Positions 8,148 to 57,469 of a DNA stretch of 64,000 nt are shown here, one piece after another; the stretch's first letter is position 1; every line of letters starts with the position of its first letter. The stretch comes from Eledone cirrhosa. Its lineage: Eukaryota. Both the position numbers and the translations under genes were made by a program. Below the pieces are notes generated by a model. The model was not told the origin of the DNA. It was given only the letters and a program-made list of their open reading frames with translations, and searched no databases. The stretch lies in assembly GCA_964016885.1 (NCBI GenBank), contig OZ024752.1, positions 22,630,001 to 22,694,000 of the forward strand, written 5' to 3'.

Positions 8148-8187
<40 letters not shown>

Positions 8188-8229
8188 CAATATTAAATAA
8201 ATGGAAAACTATATTTATAAAACCATATT

Positions 8230-8295
8230 TATTTCATTATATATATTTCGGGGATATCATATTAACAATATGCTATGCCTTCATCAGACAAAATA
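8230..8295 (-). ncRNA. Minimal hammerhead (inverted pLTR copy)
   Basis: Reverse complement of 10840-10905. Confidence 0.65.
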
Positions 8296-8660
8296 CAATA
8301 TAAACAGTTTTATAGATAAATATATTCGACATACCGTAATAAACATCAACTTCATTTGAAGAGGTTCACTCTAGCAGTGAAAATACAGAGAGAAAGAAAG
8401 AGAGAGAGAAAAGAGGGAAATAAGAAAGAAAGAAAGACAAAATGAAGAAAAGGAAGAAAAAGAAGAAAAAGAAGAAATGCATGGGACAAAATAGAGAGAT
8501 GGAAAAATAGATAAAGCGAAGAGCTTCATGTAAAGAGACCGAAAGAGATATATATATATATATAGAGAGAGAGGAAATAGAGATAGATACATATATAAAT
8601 ATAGATATAGAAAAATTAGGTAGTGGGAGGTCATTTTGAGTAAGTGTATCAATGATGCAT

Positions 8661-8695
<35 letters not shown>

Positions 8696-8696
8696 T

Positions 8697-9280
8697 TCCC
8701 TAGAACACATAGGTACCACTCAATCTTCAATAGGCATACAATTAAATTAACCTACTCATCCACCAAAAATTTAGCACAAAATATTAATAGAATAAATAAT
8801 AGGAACTTAAAACCTACTGATAATAGCATAAATAATATACAAGTTAACAAATGTAACTGTAGAGATAGATCTAAATGTCCGTTAAATAACAACTGCTTAG
8901 TTAAAAATATAGTATACAATTGTAATGTTAATACTGACTCTAATTCTTTTAACTATGTCAGTTCCACATCGACGGAATTTAAACTTCGCTATAATAACCA
9001 CAAGAATTCTTTCACAGATCCAAATAAAAAATCTTCAACGGCACTATCAGGTGTACTCTGGCAACTTAAGCTAGATAACGTTAGATATTCGACGGCTTGG
9101 AATATAGTCTCAAGAGGGATTCCTTTTAATTCATCCTCTGAGACATGTGACCTCTGCGCAGAGGAGATATTCTTTATACTAAAATCTAAAAATTCCCTTA
9201 ACCTACGGACAAATTTATTCAGTTGTTGCAAACATAGATTAAACTCAACGTTTAAATATAAATTTAAATTTAAAATGTAG
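8697..9280 (+). pseudogene. Truncated PLE ORF (GIY-YIG endonuclease region)
   Basis: CNCRDRSKC, NIVY..NYVSST..FKLRYNNH, CDLC. The Gly of YVG is Ser here but Gly in the 54.7-kb copy. Confidence 0.88.
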
Positions 9281-10439
9281 TATATTTAGTTTGATTTATA
9301 TTTATATGAGAACTAGCCGATAAATCTTTTGATTCCTAAATCTTTGATTCCCTCTTTTTACTCTTTTTATTGTTTATTTTATTTTATTTATTTTTATTTT
9401 TATTTTTATTTTTATTTTTATTTTTATTTTTATTTTTATTTTTATCTAAACATTCCTCATGAAAAATTAAGCTACCCTAAAAGCCGATGCTCCAAATTTT
9501 CTGAATTAACCTTACACTTGATAAACTTATATATTAAATATAGGAACATATGTAGACATTATTGGACATCATAATCTTTTTGCGATATTCCTTGCTAGAT
9601 GTGATTTGATAGATAATTTTTGGCTTTGTCTTGTAGTGAACTTGGCAATATATTGTCAATTAACCTTGAAGGGTTGTTCTTTGGGGTTTATTTTTATTTT
9701 CATTTTTATTTTTATTTTTATTTTTATTTTTATTTTTATTTTTATTTTTATTTTTATTCTTTTAGTATTGTAGTATTCTATAATATTTTTATATTTTTAT
9801 TTTTTATTTTTTATTTTTTTATATGTAAATTTTTTTTTTATATGTAAATTTTTATTTTTAATATTTTTAATATTTTTATATGTAAAGTTTTAATACGTAA
9901 TATTTTTAATACGTAGTATTTTTAATATGCAATATTTTTATTATGTAATATTCTTTCGTAATATTCTTTTTTAGTTTTCTATTCTATATTTTTATATTTT
10001 TATATATTTTTACTTATTATCATTATTATTGTTATCTCTGCTTATAATATAATATATATTTTCGATTAGTATATTGAAATCTGCTCTCTATTTCTGCTTG
10101 ATAGATAATCTTGTAGAGTAATCGCAAGAATAATAATACGCTCAAATTTTTATACCACATTGAGAATGTTTTCCGGTAACTTTGAATTTGCGGAGTGAAT
10201 CAGTTGGATTCACATAGACATATGAATTTTTCTAAAAAACTAAACATAAGATAATGAATTTTCACGCATTGTGAATACTTGTTTCATTCAGGAATACTGA
10301 TATTTACAATATAGTGTAAGTTTTATAAATACTAATACATTAAAACATAGGGTTTTCTATGTCTGGCTATTTTTAAATTTTTCTCTCTCTATATCTCTCT
10401 ATATCTCTCTATATATCTCCCTTACATTAATACTTGAGC

Positions 10440-10474
<35 letters not shown>

Positions 10475-10839
10475 ATGCATCATTGATACACTTACTCAAA
10501 ATGACCTCCCACTACCTAATTTTTCTATATCTATATTTATATATGTATCTATCTCTATTTCCTCTCTCTCTCTATATATATATATATCTCTTTCGGTCTC
10601 TTTACATGAAGCTCTTCGCTTTATCTATTTTTCCATCTCTCTATTTTGTCCCATGCATTTCTTCTTTTTCTTCTTTTTCTTCCTTTTCTTCATTTTGTCT
10701 TTCTTTCTTTCTTATTTCCCTCTTTTCTCTCTCTCTTTCTTTCTCTCTGTATTTTCACTGCTAGAGTGAACCTCTTCAAATGAAGTTGATGTTTATTACG
10801 GTATGTCGAATATATTTATCTATAAAACTGTTTATATTG

Positions 10840-10905
10840 TATTTTGTCTGATGAAGGCATAGCATATTGTTAATATGATATCCCCGAAATATATATAATG
10901 AAATA
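10840..10905 (+). ncRNA. Minimal hammerhead in PLE pLTR
   Basis: tattttgt-CTGATGA-(catatt/aatatg stem II)-GAAA-tatata-TA-atgaaata; A.C mismatch at the base of stem II. Confidence 0.65.
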
Positions 10906-11103
10906 AATATGGTTTTATAAATATAGTTTTCCATTTATTTAATATTGTAAATATACTCCAAGTATTTGTCGAGTGCTTTTATATCAGTTATAAATATTTA
11001 CTAGTTGTAACCCAACAATTTTAAATATAACTTTACATGTATATTTATATATATATATTTATATATTTATATATTTATATATATATATTTATATATATAT
11101 ATT

Positions 11104-17374: not shown

Positions 17375-17375
<1 letters not shown>
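16808..17375 (+). mobile_element. RTE 3' fragment with internal duplication
   Basis: Inverted sister of 7678-8110. Confidence 0.9.
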
Positions 17376-17405
<30 letters not shown>

Positions 17406-17427
17406 TATATATATTTATATTTATATA

Positions 17428-17481
<54 letters not shown>

Positions 17482-17539
17482 TATATATATTTATATTTAT
17501 ATATATTTATATTTATATATATTTATATTTATATATATT

Positions 17540-17570
<31 letters not shown>

Positions 17571-17635
17571 ATATTTATATTTATATATATATTTATATTT
17601 ATATATATATATATTTATATTTATATATATATATA

Positions 17636-18620
17636 TGAATATAGACATAGAATATTCGAAAATATTCTGTATGTTTATAATAAACATTTTGAAGACCTAA
17701 TCGCTATAGAATAGAATACGTCACGTATTACAATTAGATTCTCGATAAAAGCAAGGGAAGTAATCTACGCGTTTCATTCTTGTTAGAAATCATCAGGACT
17801 ACATATCCAGTGCTTTTATCGAGAATGACACAGCTAGAGACTTATAGAATACTTAGCTGTGTACAGGAACTGGTTTGAAAGAGCGGTTGCCGGTCCGGCA
17901 GAAATTAGAAATTGGAATAAATGCTCTGAAATAGCGATATATATGTGAATATAGACATAGAATATTCGAAAATATTCTGTATGTTTATAATAAACATTTT
18001 GAAGACCTAATCGCTATAGAATAGAATACGTCACGTATTACAATTAGATTCTCGATAAAAGCAAGGGAAGTAATCTACGCGTTTCATTCTTGTTAGAAAT
18101 CATCAGGACTACATATCCAGTGCTTTTATCGAGAATGACACAGCTAGAGACTTATAGAATACTTAGCTGTGTACAGGAACTGGTTTGAAAGAGCGGTTGC
18201 CGGTCCGGCAGAAATTAGAAATTGGAATAAATGCTCTGAAATAGCGATATATATGTGAATATAGACATAGAATATTCGAAAATATTCTGTATGTTTATAA
18301 TAAACATTTTGAAGACCTAATCGCTATAGAATAGAATACGTCACGTATTACAATTAGATTCTCGATAAAAGCAAGGGAAGTAATCTACGCGTTTCATTCT
18401 TGTTAGAAATCATCAGGACTACATATCCAGTGCTTTTATCGAGAATGACACAGCTGTGGATGAATTTATATCCTGATTCTCTTTTGAGATGAGTTTGAGT
18501 TATTTTTCCTAAATCTTTCGTTAACTACTTTTCCCATCTTGACGTTATAGTCGCATATATGTTATATATGTTATAGAATGCCGTTAGCTTCTTGCTAAAA
18601 CAATCTCTATACCTCTCATT
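17636..18620 (-). repeat. 310-bp tandem array (~2.6 units plus unique 5' leader), one hammerhead per unit; retrozyme-like
   Basis: Unit starts at 17636, 17946 and 18256; hammerheads at 17760-17802, 18070-18112 and 18380-18422. Confidence 0.9.
17760..17802 (-). ncRNA. Minimal type I hammerhead (first of 3)
   Basis: gtagtc-CTGATGA-t-ttct/agaa-t-GAAA-cgcg-TA-gattac; stem I extended by a perfect 16-bp inverted repeat (17738-17753 / 17811-17826). Confidence 0.85.
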
Positions 18621-18624
18621 TATA

Positions 18625-18796
<172 letters not shown>

Positions 18797-18822
18797 TATA
18801 TATATATATATTTATATATATA

Positions 18823-21800
18823 TCATCATCATCATCATCATCATCACTGTTTTACGTCCGTTCTTCCACGCTAGCATGGGTTAGACGGGTTGTCCTGTTG
18901 TTGGCAGTGTCTGGTCGGCTGACCATGCCTTGCTCATACAGGAACTGATCTGGCTTGATTTCTACAGCTGGATACCCTTCCTAACACCAACCTCATTTAC
19001 AGTGAGTGCTGGGTACTTTTTCGTGGCGCCTATACGTCCACTTTACAGTGTGGGCTGGGTGCTTTTTTGCCGTGGCACCTCCACGACCACCTTGCGGTGG
19101 GGGGGGGGGGGGGGGGCATATTGTTTATATGCTTCAGCATGTACCCATGGGAGGTCGGGTACCCTGTATTACTGCGTGACGCCAGAAGTCACGGTCGTGT
19201 GTCATTGACTTTGAGAGGTGTAGTTGGGTAAGGTCGGCTTTTATCACCTCATCCCAAGTCATCTTGGGTCTCCCCACTCCGCGGTTTCCATCAACTTCTA
19301 GTGCTCTGCACCTTTTTATGCAGCTGTCATCCTTCATACGCATCACATGTCCATACCAGCGTAACCGCCTCTCCTGCACGCAGCATTTGATTCCTCTTAT
19401 GCTCAGTCTCTCTCTCAATTCCTTTATGCTTTGTCGTTCACGTATATTACTGTTACACATCCATCGGAGCATGCAGGCTTCGTTTCTCTCTAATCTACGT
19501 AAGTCTTCCACCTTCAGCGCCCAGGTCTCACTACCATGCAACATCGCTGTTCGGATACACGCATCATACAGTCTGCCTTTCATTCTGAGGGAGAAGCCTT
19601 TTGCAGCTAGCAGTGGTAGTAGTTCCCTAAACTTCTTCCATCCCGTTCTTACCCTAGTTATTGTACTTTCTGAGCACCCACCTCCGTTGCTAATTCGGTC
19701 ACCTAGGTAGCAGAAGCTGTCTACTGTTTCTACAGGGCCCTCCCAGAGATTGGTGGTACTTGTTTCCTGTGGCTGTTTGCTTGCTGTTTCAGCACAGCTG
19801 CTGCATGTGAATCCTACATTCTTAATTAAGCTTCCTGAGATCCCGCTACATCTCTTGTGTACCCATTGTTTGCATTTGGGGCAGAGAATGGAGTTCCTAC
19901 CTACACCTTTCCTACATACTGAGCAAGGCCATTTCCCTGAGGGGATCTGGGTTCTGTTTTCTCGTCTACTTATAAGGACCTTAGTCTTTGTCATGTTGAC
20001 TTTGAGGCCCTTTCTCTCTAGTCCCTGCTTCCAGGTTTGGAATTTATTCTCTAGTTCTACCATAGATTCAGCTATGAGTGCGAGGTCATCAGCATACAGG
20101 AGTTCCCATGGGCATCCGGTCTTAAACTCCTCCGTTATTGCCTGCAGGACTATGATGAACAGGAGAGGGCTAAGAACAGAGCCCTGGTGGACCCCAACCT
20201 GTACGCTAAATTCCTTGCTATACTCATTGCTAATCCTAACTTTGCTGACTGCTCCCCTATACATGGCTTGTACCGCTTTCACAAGCCATTCATCTACTCC
20301 TAGTTTTCTAAGAGCCCACCAGATTACTGCACGTGGAACTCTGTCAAAGGCTTTCTCAAGGTCGACAAATGCCAAGTAGAGTGGCTTACTTTTAGCTAGG
20401 TACTTTTCCTGTAATTGCCTCACAAGGAAGAGGGCATCAGTGGTGCCTTTCCCTGGTACAAACCCAAATTGCATCTCGTCTATATTCACCCGGTCCCTAA
20501 TCAGCTGTGCTATAACTCTTTCTGTTACTTTCATGACCTGGTCCATCAACTTTATACCTCTATAGTTTCCTCTATCTAGTGCATCGCCTTTACCTTTGTA
20601 GCAGTTGACAATGATGCTACTGCACCAATCTTTTGGTATGGCCCCCTCTAGTATTACCTGGTTAACGATACGTGTGGTTATAGTGTGACCTACAGACCCA
20701 GATGCCTTCAGCATCTCGGCAGCTATACCCAATGGACCGGTTGCCTTCCCTATCTTCATATCTCTGATTGCCTTACTTACTACGCTGCCGCTGACTTGTA
20801 CTGCTGGTCCCTCTATAGGGTCTACGTGGGGTAGGGTCTCTTCTTCCCATGCATTCTCCTCATTTAGTAATCTATCATAATGACTCTTCCATGCATCTTT
20901 CTTCTCAGCACTTGTGAGGGCAAGCTCACCTTTATCATTCCGGATACACTTCTCTCCAATGACATCACAACTATCTCTGACACTGCCTCGCAATCTTGAA
21001 TACCTCCTGTTTCTGGTCCTCACGTTGTAAAACATGCTTGAATTTTCTATCCTCTGCTTCCCTCCTAGCTAAGTATACTTGTCGCCTAGCTTCCCTCTTG
21101 GTCTCTATGTAATGTACCCTGCTCCCCCCGCTCTTCCATTCTTTCCATGCCTGTCTCTTGGCCTTGACTGCTTCATCTACCTTATTGTTCCACCACCAAG
21201 TCACTCTCCTCCTGCTTGAGGTCTTACTCCAGCCACAAACCTCATCCGTCGCCTCTAGTAAGTTATTTTTTAGGAACTCCCAGTTCTCTTCTACGTTAAA
21301 TGTCTCTATCTGTTCTTCTTTACTGTCGTAGGCGTTGAGTAAAATATCTTTAAATCTGTTACTGGTTGAGGGGACTTTCAGCTTCCAGATCTTTCTTCTC
21401 CAGGTTGGCCTCTGTTTCAGGGCTCGTCTAGTTCTGACCGTGAGGTCGCTGACAACTAAGCTATGTTGGGATGTACATTCCTCACTAGGGAAGGCTTTTG
21501 TGTTTACGACCGTCCATCTGTCACGTCCTCTGATGAGGATAAAATCTAACTGACTAGAGTGCTCCCCTGATCTATAGGTGATCAGGTGGTTGTCGGGTTT
21601 TTTAAAGTTTGTGTTACATATCGACATGTCATTGGCGTCGCAGAATTCTAGAAGTCTGAATCCTTCCTCATTCCTTGTGCCAACTCCATGGCCTCCATGT
21701 ACTCTATTGAAGCCGTCGCAGTGTTTACCTACGTGTCCGTTAAAATCTCCTGCAATGATTAGGAAGTCCTTGTCGTCTGTTAGAGCAGTAGTGCGTATTA

Positions 21801-23200
21801 GGGACTCGTAAAACCTATCCTTAAGTTCGTCTGGCAGCCCCGATTGGGGTGCGTAAGCTGATATTATTGTGGTAATTGTCTTATTCAGGACTAGTCTGAG
21901 TTTAATGATTCTTGCATTTACCCTGTACACTGAGATTACTTTATCTACCCACTTGTCAGCTAATAGTATACCTACACCACCCATCCCATCGTCATTTCCC
22001 ACCCAGAAAAATTTGTAGCACTGGCTTTTTCCTACAAGGACTCTAGCAGACCCTCCTCTCCATCTAGTCTCTTGCACACAGCATACATCAACTTCCTTTC
22101 GCTCTAGCATTTCTACGATTTCTCCTGCTCTTCCTTTCATTGAGCCTACATTGATGGTACCAACTCGGAGTTTTGGGCATTTGTCGACACTCGTAGGGGA
22201 GGGTCTCTGGGTTGGCGCTTCACGTGGGTGCTTGGTAGCTCGCAGATTCATATTTCATCTATTGATTCAGAGTTGCTCGTGTATTTCCAGCTCATCCATC
22301 CATAACGGTGGGAAAATTGAGGGCTAGAAGAACAGTGGTGGTGGGGTAATGGCAGGGTGTGTTGGGATGCGCCAGAGGAGGAGAGAGTTAGTTAGGCAGG
22401 TAGTAGCAGCAGCAGTGGAAATGGCATGCTAGGTTTGATTGGTCGAATAGACTATGGTGGTGTGTGGGGGTGGGGGGGAGGGAAATTGTGAGGTAGGAAC
22501 TGAGGGTCGCATGGTAAATAACTGAGAGAGATACAATAGAATTAGAATACCGCATGGTAAATATCCAAGTTAATACTACATCAGTAAAATTAACAATAAT
22601 AACGTCATGAAAAACTACTAAGAGAAACCCTCGAAAATTTATCGCTAATACAGCAGGGAAAATTTAACGCTAATACAGCAGGGAACATCATAATATTAAC
22701 AACAATATGTAGGCTAAAATACCTTCGTAGATTAGATGGATGGCTGGAAAAATTGGAATCAACTCTAGTGATACATTTTAGCAGAGAAGAATGGGAAAGT
22801 GTCTTATCTCTTCAATATTTTCAGATTGAATGAATTAGGTTAAAGACAGGGTAGTAAGCCTTAAAGAAGTGCATAGAGAGGGGGGGGGGGGGTAGGAACA
22901 GAGGGTCGCATGGTAAATAACTGAGAGAGATACAATAGAATTAGAATACCGCATGGTAAATATCCAAGTCAATACTACATCAGTAAAATTAACAATAATA
23001 ACGTCATGAAAAACTACTAAGAGAAACCCTCGAAAATTTATCGCTAATACAGCAGGGAAAATTTAACGCTAATACAGCAGGGAACATCATAATATTAACA
23101 ACAATATGTAGGCTAAAATACCTTCGTAGATTAGATGGATGGCTGGAAAAATTGGAATCAACTCTAGTGATACATTTTAGCATTTCGAACAGCTATTTAG
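18823..23200 (-). mobile_element. Near full-length RTE-clade LINE
   Basis: (GAT)n tail, 3'UTR, APE+RT ORF, and an upstream region with a 290-bp direct repeat (22492/22891). The 5' boundary is approximate. Confidence 0.93.
19134..22251 (-). pseudogene. RTE ORF: APE endonuclease, reverse transcriptase (LYADD) and PHD finger, split by one frameshift near 20980
   Basis: The 426-aa and 633-aa ORFs join if a GT dinucleotide is restored, giving RQCVRDSCDVIG versus RQCVKENRDIVG in the 61-63 kb copy. Confidence 0.93.
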
Positions 23201-24956: not shown

Positions 24957-26477
24957 TTAAACCTTATTTAATGTTGGTCTATATTTTTGAATAAACATAT
25001 TTTCCTTATTTATTTGCATTTGTTCTGTTGTATTGTTAGCGCAAAGGTAAAATGGGAAGACTTGGAATTTGGGTGTCTTATTACTTGCGCAAATGTCTAG
25101 ATGTGCACTTAGTGGTATCTGTCTCGTGGTTGGATCTCGTAATTGTTGGCGATGAACTGTCATTCTGTTTCTGAGTGTGAGTTTAGTTTGTCCTATATAA
25201 TCTTCATTGCATCCTTTACATTTAATGGCATAAAGTAGATTTTTTGATGAGCAAGTGAAGTGATTTTTTACAGTAAAATTTTGTCCTGATTTAAATGTAT
25301 ATGTGTTGCCTTCAATGAGGTGAGTGCAGGTTCCACAATTAGAGCGACCACATTTTTTGATACTTGGTTGTGGGTTTGTGGTAGGTAATTTGGCATTGGT
25401 GAGTAATGTTTTCAGTGATTTTGGTTGTCTTTTGCTTTTGATTATTTTGTGTGTTTCAAGGGCTTTTTTCATTCTTGGGTTTTGTTTTAGTAGTGGGATG
25501 TTATTGTGAATAGTGTTGTAAGCTTCCGCATTTCTTGGGTTGTGTGTTGAGATATATGATAGAATATTGGACGTACCTTGAATTTGTTTCTGTTTCCGTA
25601 ATTCATCAATGCCTATTGCTTTAGCCCTTTCTATTCCATTATTTATTAGTAATAGTGGGTACTCTCTCTCAAGTAGAATTTCCTTTAATTCTTGAAGTCT
25701 TTTATTTCGCGTTTCATAATTGGAGACAATTGTGCAAATTCTTCTTGCTAGGTTAAAAGGAATGTTCGTCTTCGTGTGCTTTGGATGGTTGGAGGTGAAT
25801 AGCAGATATTGTTTGGAATCTGTTGGTTTGTAGTGTATGTCAGTTTCGATATTTGTGTCTTTTTTTGTGATTAAGATGTCCAGAAATGGGAGTTGATCTT
25901 GGCTGTATTCCATTGTGAATTGGATGTGGTTATTGATGCCGTTTATTAAGTTTTTGAAATCCTTCAGTTGGTCGAGTGTGTGGGACCAAAGAATGAGGCA
26001 ATCGTCCAAGTAGCGTTTCCAATTCTCTGATAAATATTTGTGGAAGTTCAATCCGTATTTTGATTTGGACTGTTCATATATCTGGACTTCTAAGTATGCC
26101 ATGACTAAGTTGGCATAAGTTGGAGCGGCTTTTGTGCCCATCGCAGTCCCCGATATTTGCTTGTAAGTATTGCCATCGAAATCAAAAAAGTTGTTCTGTA
26201 GGATGAATTTTAATCCCTCGGTGATGAAGCTTTTTTCTATTCTGTCAGGTACCTCATTGGGATATTTCTCTAGCCAGAATCCTATTGCTTCTAGTCCGTA
26301 TTGGTGTGGGATCGGTGTGTAGAGATTCACTACATCGAAAGACACAATAATAGTGTCGTTGTTGACATGTTTGGGGAGGTGGTTTAAGAGGTCCAGATCG
26401 TCTCTTACAAGGCTTGGTATGTGTTTCAGTAGTATGTCTATAAAGTTGCTCAATCTGTGTGTTTCACATTGTGACAT
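24957..26477 (-). CDS. PLE reverse transcriptase and GIY-YIG endonuclease (5'-truncated)
   Basis: SFDVVNLY, GTAMGT, RYLDD, LPFLDI; linker CGRSNCGTC; NLLYAIKC..DYIGQT..RMTVH. Confidence 0.92.
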   Translation of the reverse strand: MSQCETHRLSNFIDILLKHIPSLVRDDLDLLNHLPKHVNNDTIIVSFDVVNLYTPIPHQYGLEAIGFWLEKYPNEVPDRIEKSFITEGLKFILQNNFFDFDGNTYKQISGTAMGTKAAPTYANLVMAYLEVQIYEQSKSKYGLNFHKYLSENWKRYLDDCLILWSHTLDQLKDFKNLINGINNHIQFTMEYSQDQLPFLDILITKKDTNIETDIHYKPTDSKQYLLFTSNHPKHTKTNIPFNLARRICTIVSNYETRNKRLQELKEILLEREYPLLLINNGIERAKAIGIDELRKQKQIQGTSNILSYISTHNPRNAEAYNTIHNNIPLLKQNPRMKKALETHKIIKSKRQPKSLKTLLTNAKLPTTNPQPSIKKCGRSNCGTCTHLIEGNTYTFKSGQNFTVKNHFTCSSKNLLYAIKCKGCNEDYIGQTKLTLRNRMTVHRQQLRDPTTRQIPLSAHLDICASNKTPKFQVFPFYLCANNTTEQMQINKENMFIQKYRPTLNKV

Positions 26478-27497
26478 TGTGGGCCCGCTACAATTGGTCT
26501 TAATTTAAGGTCTGTGGGGTATTGTGTGTTCACGCAAAACACACAAAATAATCAAAAGCAAAAGACAACCAAAATCACTGAAAACATTACTCACCAATGC
26601 CAAATTACCTACCACAAACCCACAACCAAGTATCAAAAAATGTGGTCGCTCTAATTGTGGAACCTGCACTCACCTCATTGAAGGCAACACGTATACATTT
26701 AAATCAGGACAAAATTTTACTGTAAAAAATCACTTCACTTGCTCATCAAAAAATCTAATTTATGCCATTAAATGTAAAGGATGCAATGAAGATTATATAG
26801 GACAAACTAAACTCACACTCAGAAACAGAATGACAGTTCATCGCCAACAATTACGAGATCCAACCACGAGACAGATACCACTAAGTGCACATCTAGACAT
26901 TTGCGCAAGTAATAAGACACCCAAATTCCAAGTCTTCCCATTTTACCTTTGCGCTAACAATACAACAGAACAAATGCAAATAAATAAGGAAAATATGTTT
27001 ATTCAAAAATATAGACCAACATTAAATAAGGTTTAATATACATTATGTCAACACCACAATATGACATACACACACACACACATAACACCTTCTACTTTAG
27101 AAAATAAAAACCCGAACTAAATAAACCTTAACATACGTTTGCACTGGCAATACAACAACAAACACGAAAAAGTAAGGAAAATATGTTCATTCAAAAATAT
27201 TCCTACTAAAGGAATCACTTTCCTACACACACACACAATATATATATATATATATATTCTCTTCATCTTAACATGCTAACCATACTCCCACACACATAAC
27301 ACCCATACACACACATAACCCCCACACCTACAACTCTCTCCCCATTTCTACTAATAGAACCACTTTCCTACACACATATATATATACACACACACAAAAT
27401 ATATATTCTCTCCATCTTAACATACTCGCACACACACACATAACACCCATATACACACAACTCCCTCCCCCATCTCTACTAATAGAATCATCTTCCA

Positions 27498-28183: not shown

Positions 28184-28263
<80 letters not shown>

Positions 28264-28267
<4 letters not shown>

Positions 28268-29770
28268 AAATAACGAAACGAAATTAAACTTCGTTTCGTT
28301 TGTAACTCACTTTTGTATGACTGACGCTTAAACAATTAAGTTAAAGATGTACATCCATATATGTATACTGAAATACTAGTATGTATATGAATACACACAC
28401 GTATACATATGTAGATGTACCAAGTTTTTTCACTGGTCACTTTACTGTGAGTGGCCAGCTATTCTGTATGTAAACACACAGACAAACCGGTTTTTAGAGT
28501 CATACTGGTTTTTGAGGAAACACCTTTCCTCTATTCTCCAGAAAGCCAGACAAGGAATATTGAACTAGTTTCGTTGTTGTTACAACTCATCAGCAATATT
28601 TACCTATCTTCCGGCCTCTCTAGAGAATCGTAAAAGCACATATCGTTATATGCTTTTTCTATGAAAATTAGTAGTGGGCAGACTAATTTGCATAGAGTGT
28701 GAGTAAGTACCGGTTCAACGGAGACGATAAAAACAAATAACGAAACGAAATTAAACTTCGTTTCGTTTGTAACTCACTTTTGTATGACTGACGCTTAAAC
28801 AATTAAGTTAAAGATGTACATCCATATATGTATACTGAAATACTAGTATGTATATGAATACACACACGTATACATATGTAGATGTACCAAGTTTTTTCAC
28901 TGGTCACTTTACTGTGAGTGGCCAGCTATTCTGTATGTAAACACACAGACAAACCGGTTTTTAGAGTCATACTGGTTTTTGAGGAAACACCTTTCCTCTA
29001 TTCTCCAGAAAGCCAGACAAGGAATATTGAACTAGTTTCGTTGTTGTTACAACTCATCAGCAATATTTACCTATCTTCCGGCCTCTCTAGAGAATCGTAA
29101 AAGCACATATCGTTATATGCTTTTTCTATGAAAATTAGTAGTGGGCAGACTAATTTGCATAGAGTGTGAGTAAGTACCGGTTCAACGGAGACGATAAAAA
29201 CAAATAACGAAACGAAATTAAACTTCGTTTCGTTTGTAACTCACTTTTGTATGACTGACGCTTAAACAATTAAGTTAAAGATGTACATCCATATATGTAT
29301 ACTGAAATACTAGTATGTATATGAATACACACACGTATACATATGTAGATGTACCAAGTTTTTTCACTGGTCACTTTACTGTGAGTGGCCAGCTATTCTG
29401 TATGTAAACACACAGACAAACCGGTTTTTAGAGTCATACTGGTTTTTGAGGAAACACCTTTCCTCTATTCTCCAGAAAGCCAGACAAGGAATATTGAACT
29501 AGTTTCGTTGTTGTTACAACTCATCAGCAATATTTACCTATCTTCCGGCCTCTCTAGAGAATCGTAAAAGCACATATCGTTATATGCCTTTTCCTCAAAA
29601 ACCAGTATGACTCTAAAAACCGGTTTGTCTGTGTGTTTACATACAGAATAGCTGGCCACTCACAGTAAAGTGACCAGTGAAAAAACTTGGTACATCTACA
29701 TATGTATACGTGTGTGTATTCATATACATACTAGTATTTCAGTATACATATATGGATGTACATCTTTAAC

Positions 29771-29776
<6 letters not shown>
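28264..29776 (-). repeat. 467-bp tandem array (~2.8 units) with inverted terminal segment 29590-29776; one hammerhead per unit
   Basis: Unit starts at 28264, 28731 and 29198; both ends abut (TA)n. Confidence 0.93.
28556..28600 (-). ncRNA. Canonical-core minimal type I hammerhead (also 29023-29067 and 29490-29534)
   Basis: aatattg-CTGATGA-gttgt(aaca)acaac-GAAA-ctag-TT-caatatt: perfect 7-bp stem I, 5-bp stem II, GUU cleavage triplet. Confidence 0.9.
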
Positions 29777-53800: not shown

Positions 53801-54646
53801 CTGAGAATAGACTTCCTGATGACGCAATGAATTCTCGACAGTTGAATTACGTAACTGTCTTTATCCCATTGCAGAAACTAATTAGTTGGAGTGAAAATTT
53901 AAGTAAGAAAAAAATTTTTTTTTTTGAATTTTTTTTAAAAAAATATTTTTTTATTTTACGTCCTTTATATTATTGTTCTGCATTCTCCTGCATTGAACCA
54001 CCTAGGTACTATGACATAACCTGTGTATTTGCTGGCATGGGCGTGCATCTGTGCGCTTATGTTAGTTGATATATTAAATTATCTATATTTATCTCCAAAT
54101 CACTGATTTGTCGAGCAAACTTGTCAAAACCACTTCTAAAAAAATTTTTTTGGGGTGTTAGTAGGCGTCAGTCATCTTACCATCCCATTCCTTCTAACTA
54201 GCCTCTGTGTCACGTGATTGATTCTTTAGAATCGGCCATTTGACTTGAAGCAGTGAGAATTTCGGTACATAGAATTCAGTCCTCGCAAGCTGTTCGATCT
54301 ACCGAATTATTATTATTTTTATATGAGCCGCCAGTGTCCGCGCATTGCCTGGAGACTTAACTGAGAATAGACTTCCTGATGACGCAATGAATTCTCGACA
54401 GTTGAATTACGTAACTGTCTTTATCCCATTGCAGAAACTAATTAGTTGGAGTGAAAATTTAAGTAAGAAAAAAATTTTTTTTTTTTGAATTTTTTTTAAA
54501 AAAATATTTTTTTATTTTACGTCCTTTATATTATTGTTCTGCATTCTCCTGCATTGAACCACCTAGGTACTATGACATAACCTGTGTATTTGCTGGCATG
54601 GGCGTGCATCTGTGCGCTTATGTTAGTTGATATATTAAATTATCTA
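47833..54646. repeat. ~560-bp tandem array, ~12 units, with central inversion (minus arm 47833-50474, plus arm 50480-54646); one hammerhead per unit
   Basis: Periods of 558-576 bp varying mainly in A/T runs; 5 complete hammerheads on minus and 7 on plus. Confidence 0.95.
51006..51087 (+). ncRNA. Type I hammerhead with long stem II (representative of 12)
   Basis: acttc-CTGATGA-c-gcaatg..gacagtt/aactgtc..cattgc-a-GAAA-ctaattag-TT-ggagt. Confidence 0.8.
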
Positions 54647-54657
54647 TATATATATAC

Positions 54658-54696
<39 letters not shown>

Positions 54697-54699
54697 CAT

Positions 54700-55756
54700 A
54701 ATTTGCCTAAACCACTCAACAACCTCTTTCCTAGATATAACATTAAATCTCAACACATGTCTCCACTATCCTTTTCACAAGTTGAATGAGAACTTAAACT
54801 ATGTCAACTTTAACTCTAACCACCCCAGATCTGTCAGAAACACTATAGTAAACTCAGTCCAAAAGCGTATCTCTAGGATCTCGTCGAATAGAAAGATTTT
54901 TGACGAAAAGGCCCAATACTATAATGATGCACTAGCTAGGGCAGGGTATGCTGATAAGATTGTGTACATAGATAATGATAAACAAACTAAACAAAGTAAC
55001 AACTTTTTTAATTATGGCAACAACATTAACAACTATAATAGAAAGCATTACAATAATTCCAAAGGACAAAAAAGAAATAGAACTAGGAACATAATTTGGT
55101 TTGCCCCCCCTTTCTCACTAAACATTAAAACCCACATCGCTAAATTATTTTTCAAAGCTCTTGATAATCGCTTCCCTAGAACACATAGGTACCACTCAAT
55201 CTTCAATAGGCATACAATTAAATTAACCTATTCATCCACCAAAAATTTAGCACAAAATATTAATAGAATAAATAATAGGAACTTAAAACCTACTGATAAT
55301 AGCATAAATAATATACAAGTTAACAAATGTAACTGTAGAGATAGATCTAAATGTCCGTTAAATAACAACTGCTTAGTTAAAAATATAGTATACAATTGTA
55401 ATGTTAATACTGACTCTAATTCTTTTAACTACGTCGGTTCCACATCGACGGAATTTAAACTTCGCTATAATAACCACAAGAATTCTTTCACAGATCCAAA
55501 TAAAAAATCTTCAACGGCACTATCAGGTGTACTCTGGCAACTTAAGCTAGATAACGTTAGATATTCGACGGCTTGGAATATAGTCTCAAGAGGGATTCCT
55601 TTTAATTCATCCTCTGAGACATGTGACCTCTGCGCAGAGGAGATATTCTTTATACTAAAATCTAAAAATTCCCTTAACCTACGGACAAATTTATTCAGTT
55701 GTTGCAAACATAGATTAAACTCAACGTTTAAATATAAATTTAAATTTAAAATGTAG
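54700..55756 (+). CDS. PLE ORF C-terminal part (SFLDITL, SNHP, WFAPPFS, CxCx5C, GIY-YIG)
   Basis: Open frame within ORF 54584-55756; the first ~39 aa come from flanking repeats. Confidence 0.88.
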
Positions 55757-56866
55757 TATATTTAGTTTGTTTTATATTTATATGAGAACTAGCCGATAAA
55801 TCTTTTGATTCCTAAATCTTTGATTCCCTCTTTTTACTGTTTATTTTATTGTATTTATTTTTATTTTTATTTTTTTTTTTTTTTTTTTTATCTAAACATT
55901 CCTCATGAAAAATTAAGCTACCCTAAAAGCCGATGCTCCAAATTTTATGAATTAACCTTACACTTGATAAACTTATATATTAAATATAGGAACATATGTA
56001 GACATTATTGGACATCATAATCTTTTTTTTTTTGCGATATTCCTTGCTAGGTGTGATTTGATAGATAATTTTTGGCTTTGTCTTGTAGTGAACTTGGCAA
56101 TATATTGTCAATTAACCTTGAAGGGTTGTTCTTTGTGGTTTATTTTTTATTTTCATTTTTATTTTTATTTTTATTTTTATTTTTATTTTTATTCTTTTAG
56201 TATTGTAGTATTCTATAATATTTTTATATTTTTATATTTTTATTTTATTTTTTATTTTATTTTATTTTTATTTTTAATATTTTTATATGTAAAGTTTTAA
56301 TACGTAATATTTTTAATACGTAGTATTTTTAATATGCAATATTTTTATTATGTAATATTCTTTCGTAATATTCTTTTTTAGTTTTCTATTCTATATTTTT
56401 ATATTTTTATATATTTTTATATATTTTTACTTATTATCATTATCTCTGCTTATAATATAATATATATTTTCGATTAGTATATTGAAATCTGCTCTCTATT
56501 TCTGCTTGATAGATAATCTTGTAGAGTAATCGCAAGAATAATAATACGCTCAAATGTTTATACCACATTGAGAATGTTTTCCGGTAACTTTGAATTTGCG
56601 GAGTGAATCAGTTGGATTCACATAGACATATGAATTTTTTTTTTTTTTTTTAAAAACTAAACATAAGATAATGAATTTTCACGCATTGTGAATACTTGTT
56701 TCATTCAGGAATACTGATATTTACAATATAGTGTAAGTTTTATAAATACTAATACATTAAAACATAGGGTTTTCTACGCCTCGAATATGTCTGGCTATTT
56801 TTTAAATTTTTCTCTCTCTATATCTCTCTATATCTCTCTATATCTCCCTTACATTAATACTTGAGC

Positions 56867-56901
<35 letters not shown>

Positions 56902-57455
56902 ATGCATCATTGATACACTTACTCAAAATGACCTCCCACTACCTAATTTTTCTATATCTATATTTATATATGTATCTATCTCTATTTCCTCTCTCTCTAT
57001 ATATATATATATATCTCTTTCGGTCTCTTTACATGAAGCTCTTCGCTTTATCTATTTTTTCCATCTCTCTATTTTGTCCCATGCATTTCTTCTTTTTCTT
57101 CTTTTTCTTCGTTTCGTCTTTCTTTCTTTCTTATTTCCCTCTTTTCTCTCTCTCTTTCTTTCTCTCTGTATTTTCACTGCTAGAGTGAACCTCTTCAAAT
57201 GAAGTTGATGTTTATTACGGTATGTCGAATATATTTATCTATAAAACTGTTTATATTGTATTTTGTCTGATGAAGGCATAGCATATTGTTAATATGATAT
57301 CCCCGAAATATATATAATGAAATAAATATGGTTTTATAAATATAGTTTTCCATTTATGTAATATTGTAAATATACTCCAAGTATTTGTCGAGTGCTTTTA
57401 TATCAGTTATAAATATTTACTAGTTGTAACCCAACAATTTTAAATATAACCTTAC
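54700..57455 (+). mobile_element. 5'-truncated Naiad-like PLE (RT thumb, GIY-YIG, long 3'UTR/pLTR; hammerhead 57259-57324)
   Basis: Near-identical to 8697-11037; flanked by (TA)n. Confidence 0.93.
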
Positions 57456-57469
57456 ATGTATATATATAC

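What the first reader, a model, noticed from the sequence alone, without database searches (positions are those of the whole stretch)
17636..18620. 310-bp hammerhead array with stem I clamped by a 16-bp perfect helix
Seen: three hammerheads (GAAA-CGCG-UA) at 310-bp spacing, each enclosed by attctcgataaaagca/tgcttttatcgagaat, plus further hairpins (acacagcta/tagctgtgt, agaatatt/aatattct, gccgg/ccggc). A unique ~165-bp leader (18455-18620) precedes the first unit on the sense strand. Inference: either a tandem pLTR of a 5'-truncated PLE or a retrozyme still attached to its parent's 3' region, a possible intermediate between the two.
Basis: partly seen in the sequence, partly recalled or inferred. 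Interest (0 to 1): 0.78.

Follow-up and report, generated by a model that had tools for sequence, protein, structure and literature searches.

The report
Two ribozyme retroelements fused head-to-head
A short protein-free repeat with a predicted self-cutting RNA motif, present in thousands of near-identical copies, is here fused head-to-head to the end of a second, unrelated repeat and not to its parent; its other copies carry the insertion marks of Penelope-like retrotransposons, which likely move it.

Summary
The array is real: 2.7 copies of a 310-bp unit, each with a type I hammerhead inside a 16-bp helix. It belongs to a very young family (4,541 exact core matches). The 'unique leader' is not unique and is not a parent's 3' region. 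It is the 3' end of a second, 628-bp hammerhead tandem family (862 exact cores), lying on the opposite strand and joined through a 2-nt microhomology. This exact join occurs once in the assembly. The family is more informative than the locus. Most copies are head-to-head double arms in (TA)n tracts. One arm ends at site 1 and the other about 26-40 nt further on, in 76 of 76 resolved loci: the Penelope 'inverted + tail' signature. The arms share one haplotype (fixed difference in 1 of 92 loci; 67% of cross-locus pairs differ), and either arm can be much the longer. That points to one RNA primed twice and argues against simple fold-back self-priming. Verdict: a new member of the known non-LTR retrozymes, likely moved by a Penelope-like RT/endonuclease; the window's copy is a rare chimera. 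No parent was found; cleavage is untested.

The parts
17627..18455 (-). 310-bp non-LTR retrozyme arm, 2.7 units, 5'-truncated at 18455; 3' end at initiation site 1 (about 17636, blending into TA)
   Evidence: no variant from the family majority sequence
17738..17826 (-). type I hammerhead inside the 16-bp clamp, unit 1; core 17796-17790; predicted cut between 17766 and 17765
   Evidence: cut site inferred from the hammerhead consensus
18048..18136 (-). type I hammerhead and clamp, unit 2
18358..18446 (-). type I hammerhead and clamp, unit 3
17649..17668 (-). 8-bp hairpin just upstream of initiation site 1 (also at 17959 and 18269); candidate RT-binding mark (inferred)
   Evidence: 94.6% of cells paired, 2 of 8 pairs with two-sided change in sister families
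18454..18455 (.). 5'-to-5' junction; 2-nt microhomology CT shared by both families
   Evidence: the 30-mer across it occurs once in the genome
18454..18625 (+). the 'leader': 3'-terminal piece (unit positions 469-631) of a separate 628-bp hammerhead tandem family, ending at that family's fixed 3' site on (TA)n; it holds no hammerhead itself
18555..18563 (+). 9-bp duplication private to this copy
   Evidence: (1 match in the genome)
17375..17636 (.). left (TA)n target tract, preceded by a (GAT)n retroposon tail
18621..18846 (.). right (TA)n target tract, followed by the (ATC)n tail of a LINE whose RT frame lies at 19134-21068

Best explanation
The array is one arm of a young, protein-free hammerhead tandem element (a non-LTR retrozyme) that is likely copied into (TA)n tracts by a borrowed Penelope-like RT/GIY-YIG enzyme, and the 'leader' is the 3' end of a different retrozyme family fused to it head-to-head. 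Usual cycle (inferred): both strands of a TA tract are cut; each DNA end primes reverse transcription on the same RNA, one at site 1 and one at site 2 about 26-40 nt downstream; the two cDNAs stop at unrelated points and are joined 5'-to-5' by short microhomology. In the window the site-1 arm is normal but the site-2 arm is missing. Most likely a 628-family copy landed in the same tract as a separate event, and a microhomology join or deletion removed what lay between. Shown: anatomy, copy numbers, end positions, shared haplotypes, identity of the leader. Inferred: the enzyme, the priming order, the origin of the chimera, ribozyme activity (predicted weak as a monomer, better as a dimer).
For: Family: 4,541 exact core matches; 98 single-unit changes in 250,891 aligned bases from 109 loci. 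Ends: 1,178 exact site-1/TA joins and 957 exact site-2/TA joins. Of 45 loci with both ends resolved (tallied), all pair site 1 with site 2. Of 40 loci picked from the site-2 side, 31 resolved two-arm loci all have a site-1 partner, 4 two-arm loci ran off the stretch, 1 arm was unresolved and 4 were single arms. One copy outside TA has an 11-bp target duplication (L046). Same template: fixed difference between arms in 0 of 57 and 1 of 35, against 2137 of 3192 cross-locus pairs; shared variants in 36 of 57 and 28 of 35. In L353 both arms switch haplotype at the same rank from the 3' end though they hold 3 and 18 units. Against simple fold-back: in 74 loci the site-1 arm is longer by more than one unit in 19 and the site-2 arm in 31; 5' phases are unrelated (median gap 74 nt, 77 expected). 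GIY-YIG elements abound in this genome (150 scored matches), and one (L278) has a hammerhead, inverted arms and a tail of about 50 nt. The 628 family behaves differently: fixed 3' end in 67 of 72, its own inverted arm in 1 of 77, and a 5' end off microsatellite in 17 of 77 by pattern, about 9 of them clear fusions into other sequence by eye. Literature: inverted copy and 30-40 bp tail at one end (PMC8557442, passages); two RT start sites bound the tail, both strands are cut and extended, dimer predicted (PMC11167929, parts 1-2 of 4).
Against: No autonomous parent was found: none of 50 GIY-YIG loci has the 310 unit as its terminal repeat (50 of 150 scored, 10,595 candidates). The hammerhead scores far below Rfam cut-offs. 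In 10.64898/2026.07.22.740005 eight of nine predicted retrozyme dimers did not cleave in vitro. The absence of locus-fixed variants in the 11 core positions is not significant (P about 0.29). L317 has a variant in all 7 units of one arm but only 2 of 6 of the other, and L330 has one fixed difference. Arm lengths correlate weakly (rho 0.27, p 0.018). The samples come almost all from contig C1 and from exact patterns, so they lean to young copies. Nothing here separates a two-step origin of the chimera from a one-step one. The junction has not been confirmed in reads.
Confidence: 0.8

Rival explanations
1. Same identities, but the chimera formed in one step: one end of a single break was primed on a 310 RNA and the other on a 628 RNA, and the two cDNAs were joined 5'-to-5'.
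For: Both 3' ends face outward and sit at their families' own fixed sites on TA, with no TA between them. The 2-nt microhomology equals the commonest overlap at ordinary 310 junctions (10 of 56). Both pieces are equally young.
Against: Ordinary two-arm loci come from one template (1 of 92 differ). The 628 family almost never makes inverted arms (1 of 77), so it likely uses another enzyme, and its 5' ends fuse into various neighbours anyway.
Confidence: 0.3
2. The junction is an assembly error joining two high-copy repeats.
For: The join is seen once. In the contigs laid (X1, X6), the leader continues into 628 sequence and lacks the 9-bp duplication; contigs drop rare variants, so this is weak.
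Against: Both outer ends are at the exact family-specific termini, the join has a microhomology, and the piece carries a private duplication.
Confidence: 0.08
3. One reading: the leader is the 3' region of the autonomous parent, so this is a PLE-to-retrozyme intermediate.
For: The unit is Penelope-like in motif and end structure.
Against: The leader is part of a non-coding 628-bp tandem unit in the opposite orientation; it is never beside the 310 unit in 30 leader loci nor in 39 other scored matches of a query spanning the join.
Confidence: 0.03
4. The double arms of the family arise by fold-back self-priming on an antisense template (proposed for PLEs in PMC3846280), or one arm is copied from the other's DNA.
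For: It explains shared haplotypes and same-rank variants (L353, L096, L105); a few junctions are near-palindromic (4 of 74 within 15 nt).
Against: Either arm can be far longer than the other, 5' phases are random (4 near-palindromic against 7.4 expected), and both arms end at fixed sites on the target.
Confidence: 0.15

Closest known systems
Metazoan non-LTR retrozymes (PMC7229834; 10.64898/2026.07.22.740005); axolotl HHR_Amex2/Rtz_353 in particular
   Same: Tandem non-coding units of a few hundred bp, below 50% GC (34% here), one type I hammerhead per unit, thousands of copies, PLEs in the same genome. As described for Amex2: two-pair helix III and a U-U mismatch at the base of helix II.
   Different: Here the rule is a head-to-head double arm with two fixed 3' sites. 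'inverted' and 'orientation' have 0 occurrences in PMC7229834, and I saw no such structure in the preprint's main text (parts 1-3 of 5; its supplements were not seen). Cleavage and circular RNA are not shown here.
EN+ Penelope-like elements (PMC8557442, PMC3846280, PMC11167929)
   Same: Inverted 5'-truncated copy, short tail at one end only, AT-rich or (TA)n targets, a hammerhead some 130 nt upstream of the start site, a target duplication where visible.
   Different: No RT or GIY-YIG frame; both arms are multimers of the terminal repeat alone (up to at least 29 units). In vitro the anole enzyme showed no strand difference in start site, whereas here each insertion uses each site once.
L1 twin priming (recalled, not read)
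   Same: Head-to-head inversion from two priming events on one RNA, joined by microhomology.
   Different: In L1 the second priming is internal and the two parts do not overlap; here both start at fixed sites about 30 nt apart and copy the same repeat.

Membership tests
non-LTR retrozyme | tandem units of about 150-450 bp with a type I hammerhead in each | tested here: met
non-LTR retrozyme | no protein coding | tested here: met
   no frame of 120 aa or more within the array; the listed frames that touch its edges run through TA tracts
non-LTR retrozyme | dispersed, many copies, low GC, PLEs in the same genome | tested here: met
non-LTR retrozyme | self-cleavage of the RNA | not testable with these tools
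   needs a co-transcriptional assay of monomer and dimer
non-LTR retrozyme | accumulates as circular RNA | not testable with these tools
   needs RNA data or northern blots
non-LTR retrozyme | lacks LTR, primer-binding site and polypurine tract | not tested
   no dedicated search; the anatomy shows no LTR pair
type I hammerhead | core CUGANGA...GAAA...UH with three helices | tested here: met
   6-bp helix I, 4-bp helix II, palindromic 2-pair helix III. Two-sided changes in 4 of 6 and 3 of 4 pairs of helices I and II and 9 of 16 clamp pairs among 14 sequences; these are only about three independent families, and the structure was drawn from the window's row
type I hammerhead | Rfam gathering score | tested here: not met
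   HH9 19.2 bits against 52; none at gathering
EN+ PLE integration signature | inverted 5'-truncated copy | tested here: met
   family: 57 two-arm loci and 35 of 40; absent in the window's own copy
EN+ PLE integration signature | 30-40 bp tail at one end only | tested here: met
   76 of 76 resolved loci; about 26-40 nt, blurred by TA-like letters at both sites
EN+ PLE integration signature | AT-rich target, target duplication | tested here: met
   duplication seen in one non-TA locus only (L046)
autonomous PLE or truncated PLE with pLTR | RT + GIY-YIG frame continuous with the repeat | tested here: not met
   leader is a foreign non-coding piece; no long coding-like frame tied to the unit in 30 sister loci; no match as terminal repeat in 50 GIY-YIG loci

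The most novel reading that the evidence does not exclude
A Penelope-type RT dimer holds both ends of a double-strand cut and primes each once, at two fixed sites on one retrozyme RNA, so this family is a record of thousands of in vivo events that solves the origin of the PLE 'inverted + tail' structure; the window is the rare event in which the second end was captured by the RNA of a different family, a cross-family co-integration.
Probability: 0.25. Interest if true: 0.72.

Novelty: new member of a known kind. Interest (0 to 1): 0.45.

Why it matters
The link between animal retrozymes and Penelope-like elements rests, in the papers read, on shared motifs, co-occurrence and trees. This family shows the Penelope integration marks directly on a protein-free retrozyme. 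How PLE inverted arms and tails form is called open in PMC8557442 and PMC3846280. A family with more than a thousand near-identical insertions, a strict one-site-per-arm rule and traceable haplotypes lets twin priming, fold-back and rolling-circle models be tested by counting. The single chimeric locus is a curiosity unless it proves to be one event.

Tried and rejected
A DNA search of the genome with the whole 310 unit found nothing because very common words are skipped; exact patterns were used instead. Sequencing runs: no RNA holder listed, which says nothing on expression. Twenty rows under 17 organism labels hold part of the stretch; I considered horizontal transfer and do not claim it. 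X1 and X6 each give one contig of the 310 unit and one of the 628 family together, as trace DNA of one host would; X23 gave 0 reads (no test). An apparent C>T strand bias in single-unit changes (74 against 8) came from the TA-blurred 3' end and vanished when ends were trimmed (18 against 8, p 0.32). 5' ends do not cluster at the predicted cleavage site (4 of 148, 5.3 expected). The sigma-70 scan was at chance level and is not apt for an animal genome. Parent hunt: no parent. Three look-ups in earlier findings were empty. Paper searches for 'Penelope-like + head-to-head + hammerhead' gave 0 papers; 'Penelope-like + twin priming' gave 3 unrelated listings; 'retrozyme + TPRT + inverted + GIY-YIG' gave only PMC8557442. 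The library lacks most subscription papers, so this is no proof that the structure is unpublished.

Full report
Observation. The window lies at G000:C12:22630001-22694000 in a 3.0-Gb genome; the organism was not identified. A 310-bp unit is repeated 2.7 times at 17627-18455 between two (TA)n tracts. Read on the minus strand, each unit holds helix I, CUGAUGA, a 4-bp helix II with a U-U pair at its base, GAAA, a palindromic two-pair helix III and UA, all inside a perfect 16-bp helix. The helix and fold exceed shuffled controls. Rfam gives only a sub-threshold HH9 match. The pairing holds up across related families: a roughly 75% identical 315-bp sister family (2,623 candidates, 40 scored) and a third variant show two-sided changes in the clamp and in helices I and II; no shuffle of 500 reaches the observed score. 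These 14 rows are only about three independent families.

The leader. It has 495 candidate matches (40 scored), many at 628-bp spacing. It is the 3' part of a 628-bp tandem unit with its own type I hammerhead on the other strand; 862 exact cores exist. In the window it covers unit positions 469-631, is identical apart from a private 9-bp duplication, and ends at that family's fixed 3' site. The two elements meet 5'-to-5' over a shared CT. The join occurs once, and among 358 loci held only the window's own place has the two families in contact; three other loci have them 589-851 bp apart. So this is not a retrozyme attached to its parent.

The 310 family. There are 4,541 exact core matches and 0.04% single-unit divergence. 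Loci were sampled three ways, nearly all on contig C1: first places of the core pattern (30 overlapping loci), 70 of the 100 listed site-1 ends and 40 further site-2 ends, 23 of them chosen because no site-1 partner was in the list. Most are head-to-head double arms. One arm ends at unit position 0-9 and the other at 35-42 in all 45 resolved loci (tally) and all 31; loci that ran off the fetched stretch were left out of these counts. About ten loci are single arms with the 5' end on or next to TA. One locus outside TA shows an 11-bp target duplication. This matches the inverted copy and 30-40 bp one-sided tail of EN+ PLEs (PMC8557442 and PMC3846280, passages) and the two RT start sites of the anole element (PMC11167929, parts 1-2 of 4).

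One template. Arms of one locus differ by a fixed variant in 0 of 57 and 1 of 35 loci, against 67% of cross-locus pairs. In L353, L096 and L105 a variant or haplotype switch sits at the same rank from the 3' end in both arms, which fits a linear multimeric RNA read twice; L317 does not fit unless its arms started at different unit junctions. Arms of 29 or more identical units also fit a circle or later amplification, so circle against multimer stays open. Simple fold-back predicts linked 5' ends and a second arm no longer than the first; neither holds in 74 loci.

The 628 family has one fixed 3' end (67 of 72), almost no inversions (1 of 77), and 5' ends mostly on TA (57 of 77), with 3 on other microsatellites and 17 off microsatellite by pattern; several of those run into other repeats. 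It likely uses a different enzyme, and its 5' joining is loose. That makes a two-step origin of the window's chimera (about 0.55) more likely than co-integration (0.3), an assembly error (0.08) or a parent link (0.03). These odds are judgement; no call separates the first two, and the junction is unconfirmed in reads.

Partner enzyme. GIY-YIG matches are plentiful (150 scored of 10,595 candidates), and the window has an RT+GIY-YIG frame at 24957-26504. Of 50 loci examined, none carries the 310 unit as its terminal repeat. L278 has the same plan (hammerhead, start about 146 nt on, inverted arm, tail of about 50 nt) without sequence likeness. The clade labels I considered (Neptune for L278, RTE for the flanking LINE) are recalled and were not tested by a tree.

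Comparison. It meets the testable marks of non-LTR retrozymes (PMC7229834, parts 2-3 of 6 and passages; preprint 10.64898/2026.07.22.740005, parts 1-3 of 5, supplements not seen). The short palindromic helix III is the described dimer-type metazoan hammerhead (PMC4209133, passages), which also notes nearby hammerheads on opposite strands. Cleavage and circles are untested. The element is a new member of a known kind. Its value is the clean Penelope signature and the one-site-per-arm, one-template rule, which I did not find described for retrozymes in searches.

Noticed in passing
window 28260-29776: A second hammerhead tandem family (467 bp, 2.9 units, minus strand) with its own inverted arm; its two ends lie about 75 nt apart here and in L273.
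   Followed up: partly
window 8187-11040, 54581-57459; L169 neighbour family; L278: PLEs with hammerheads and inverted arms whose two ends differ by about 92 nt (window) or about 50 nt (L278): tail length looks family-specific and wider than the published 30-40 nt.
   Followed up: partly
310 family, 109 loci: Locus-fixed variants are rich in A>G on the hammerhead strand (11 of 34, against 10 of 98 single-unit changes, Fisher p 0.005; against T>C p 0.026); all 4 in the clamp keep a G-U pair. Captured A-to-I editing or selection on structure; not separated.
   Followed up: partly
L069:1998-2347, L204-L232, L104, L212: Older 315-bp sister family and a third variant with the same two end sites (8 and 35-37) and a covarying clamp.
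   Followed up: yes
L353 (C1:136.72 Mb): Both arms carry two units of one haplotype and then switch to another, at the same rank from the 3' end.
   Followed up: yes
window 24957-27036: RT+GIY-YIG element with a partial tandem and inverted copy ending in (CA)n; my scan found no hammerhead near it.
   Followed up: partly
window +2751, -16049, -38246, +46467: Further single hammerhead-like motifs of other repeat families.
   Followed up: no
L122, L268, L272, L281, L029: A small palindromic family whose hammerhead core is close in sequence to that of the 310 unit.
   Followed up: no
window 22500-23180: Two copies of a roughly 300-bp stretch 399 bp apart with an inner 25-bp repeat.
   Followed up: no
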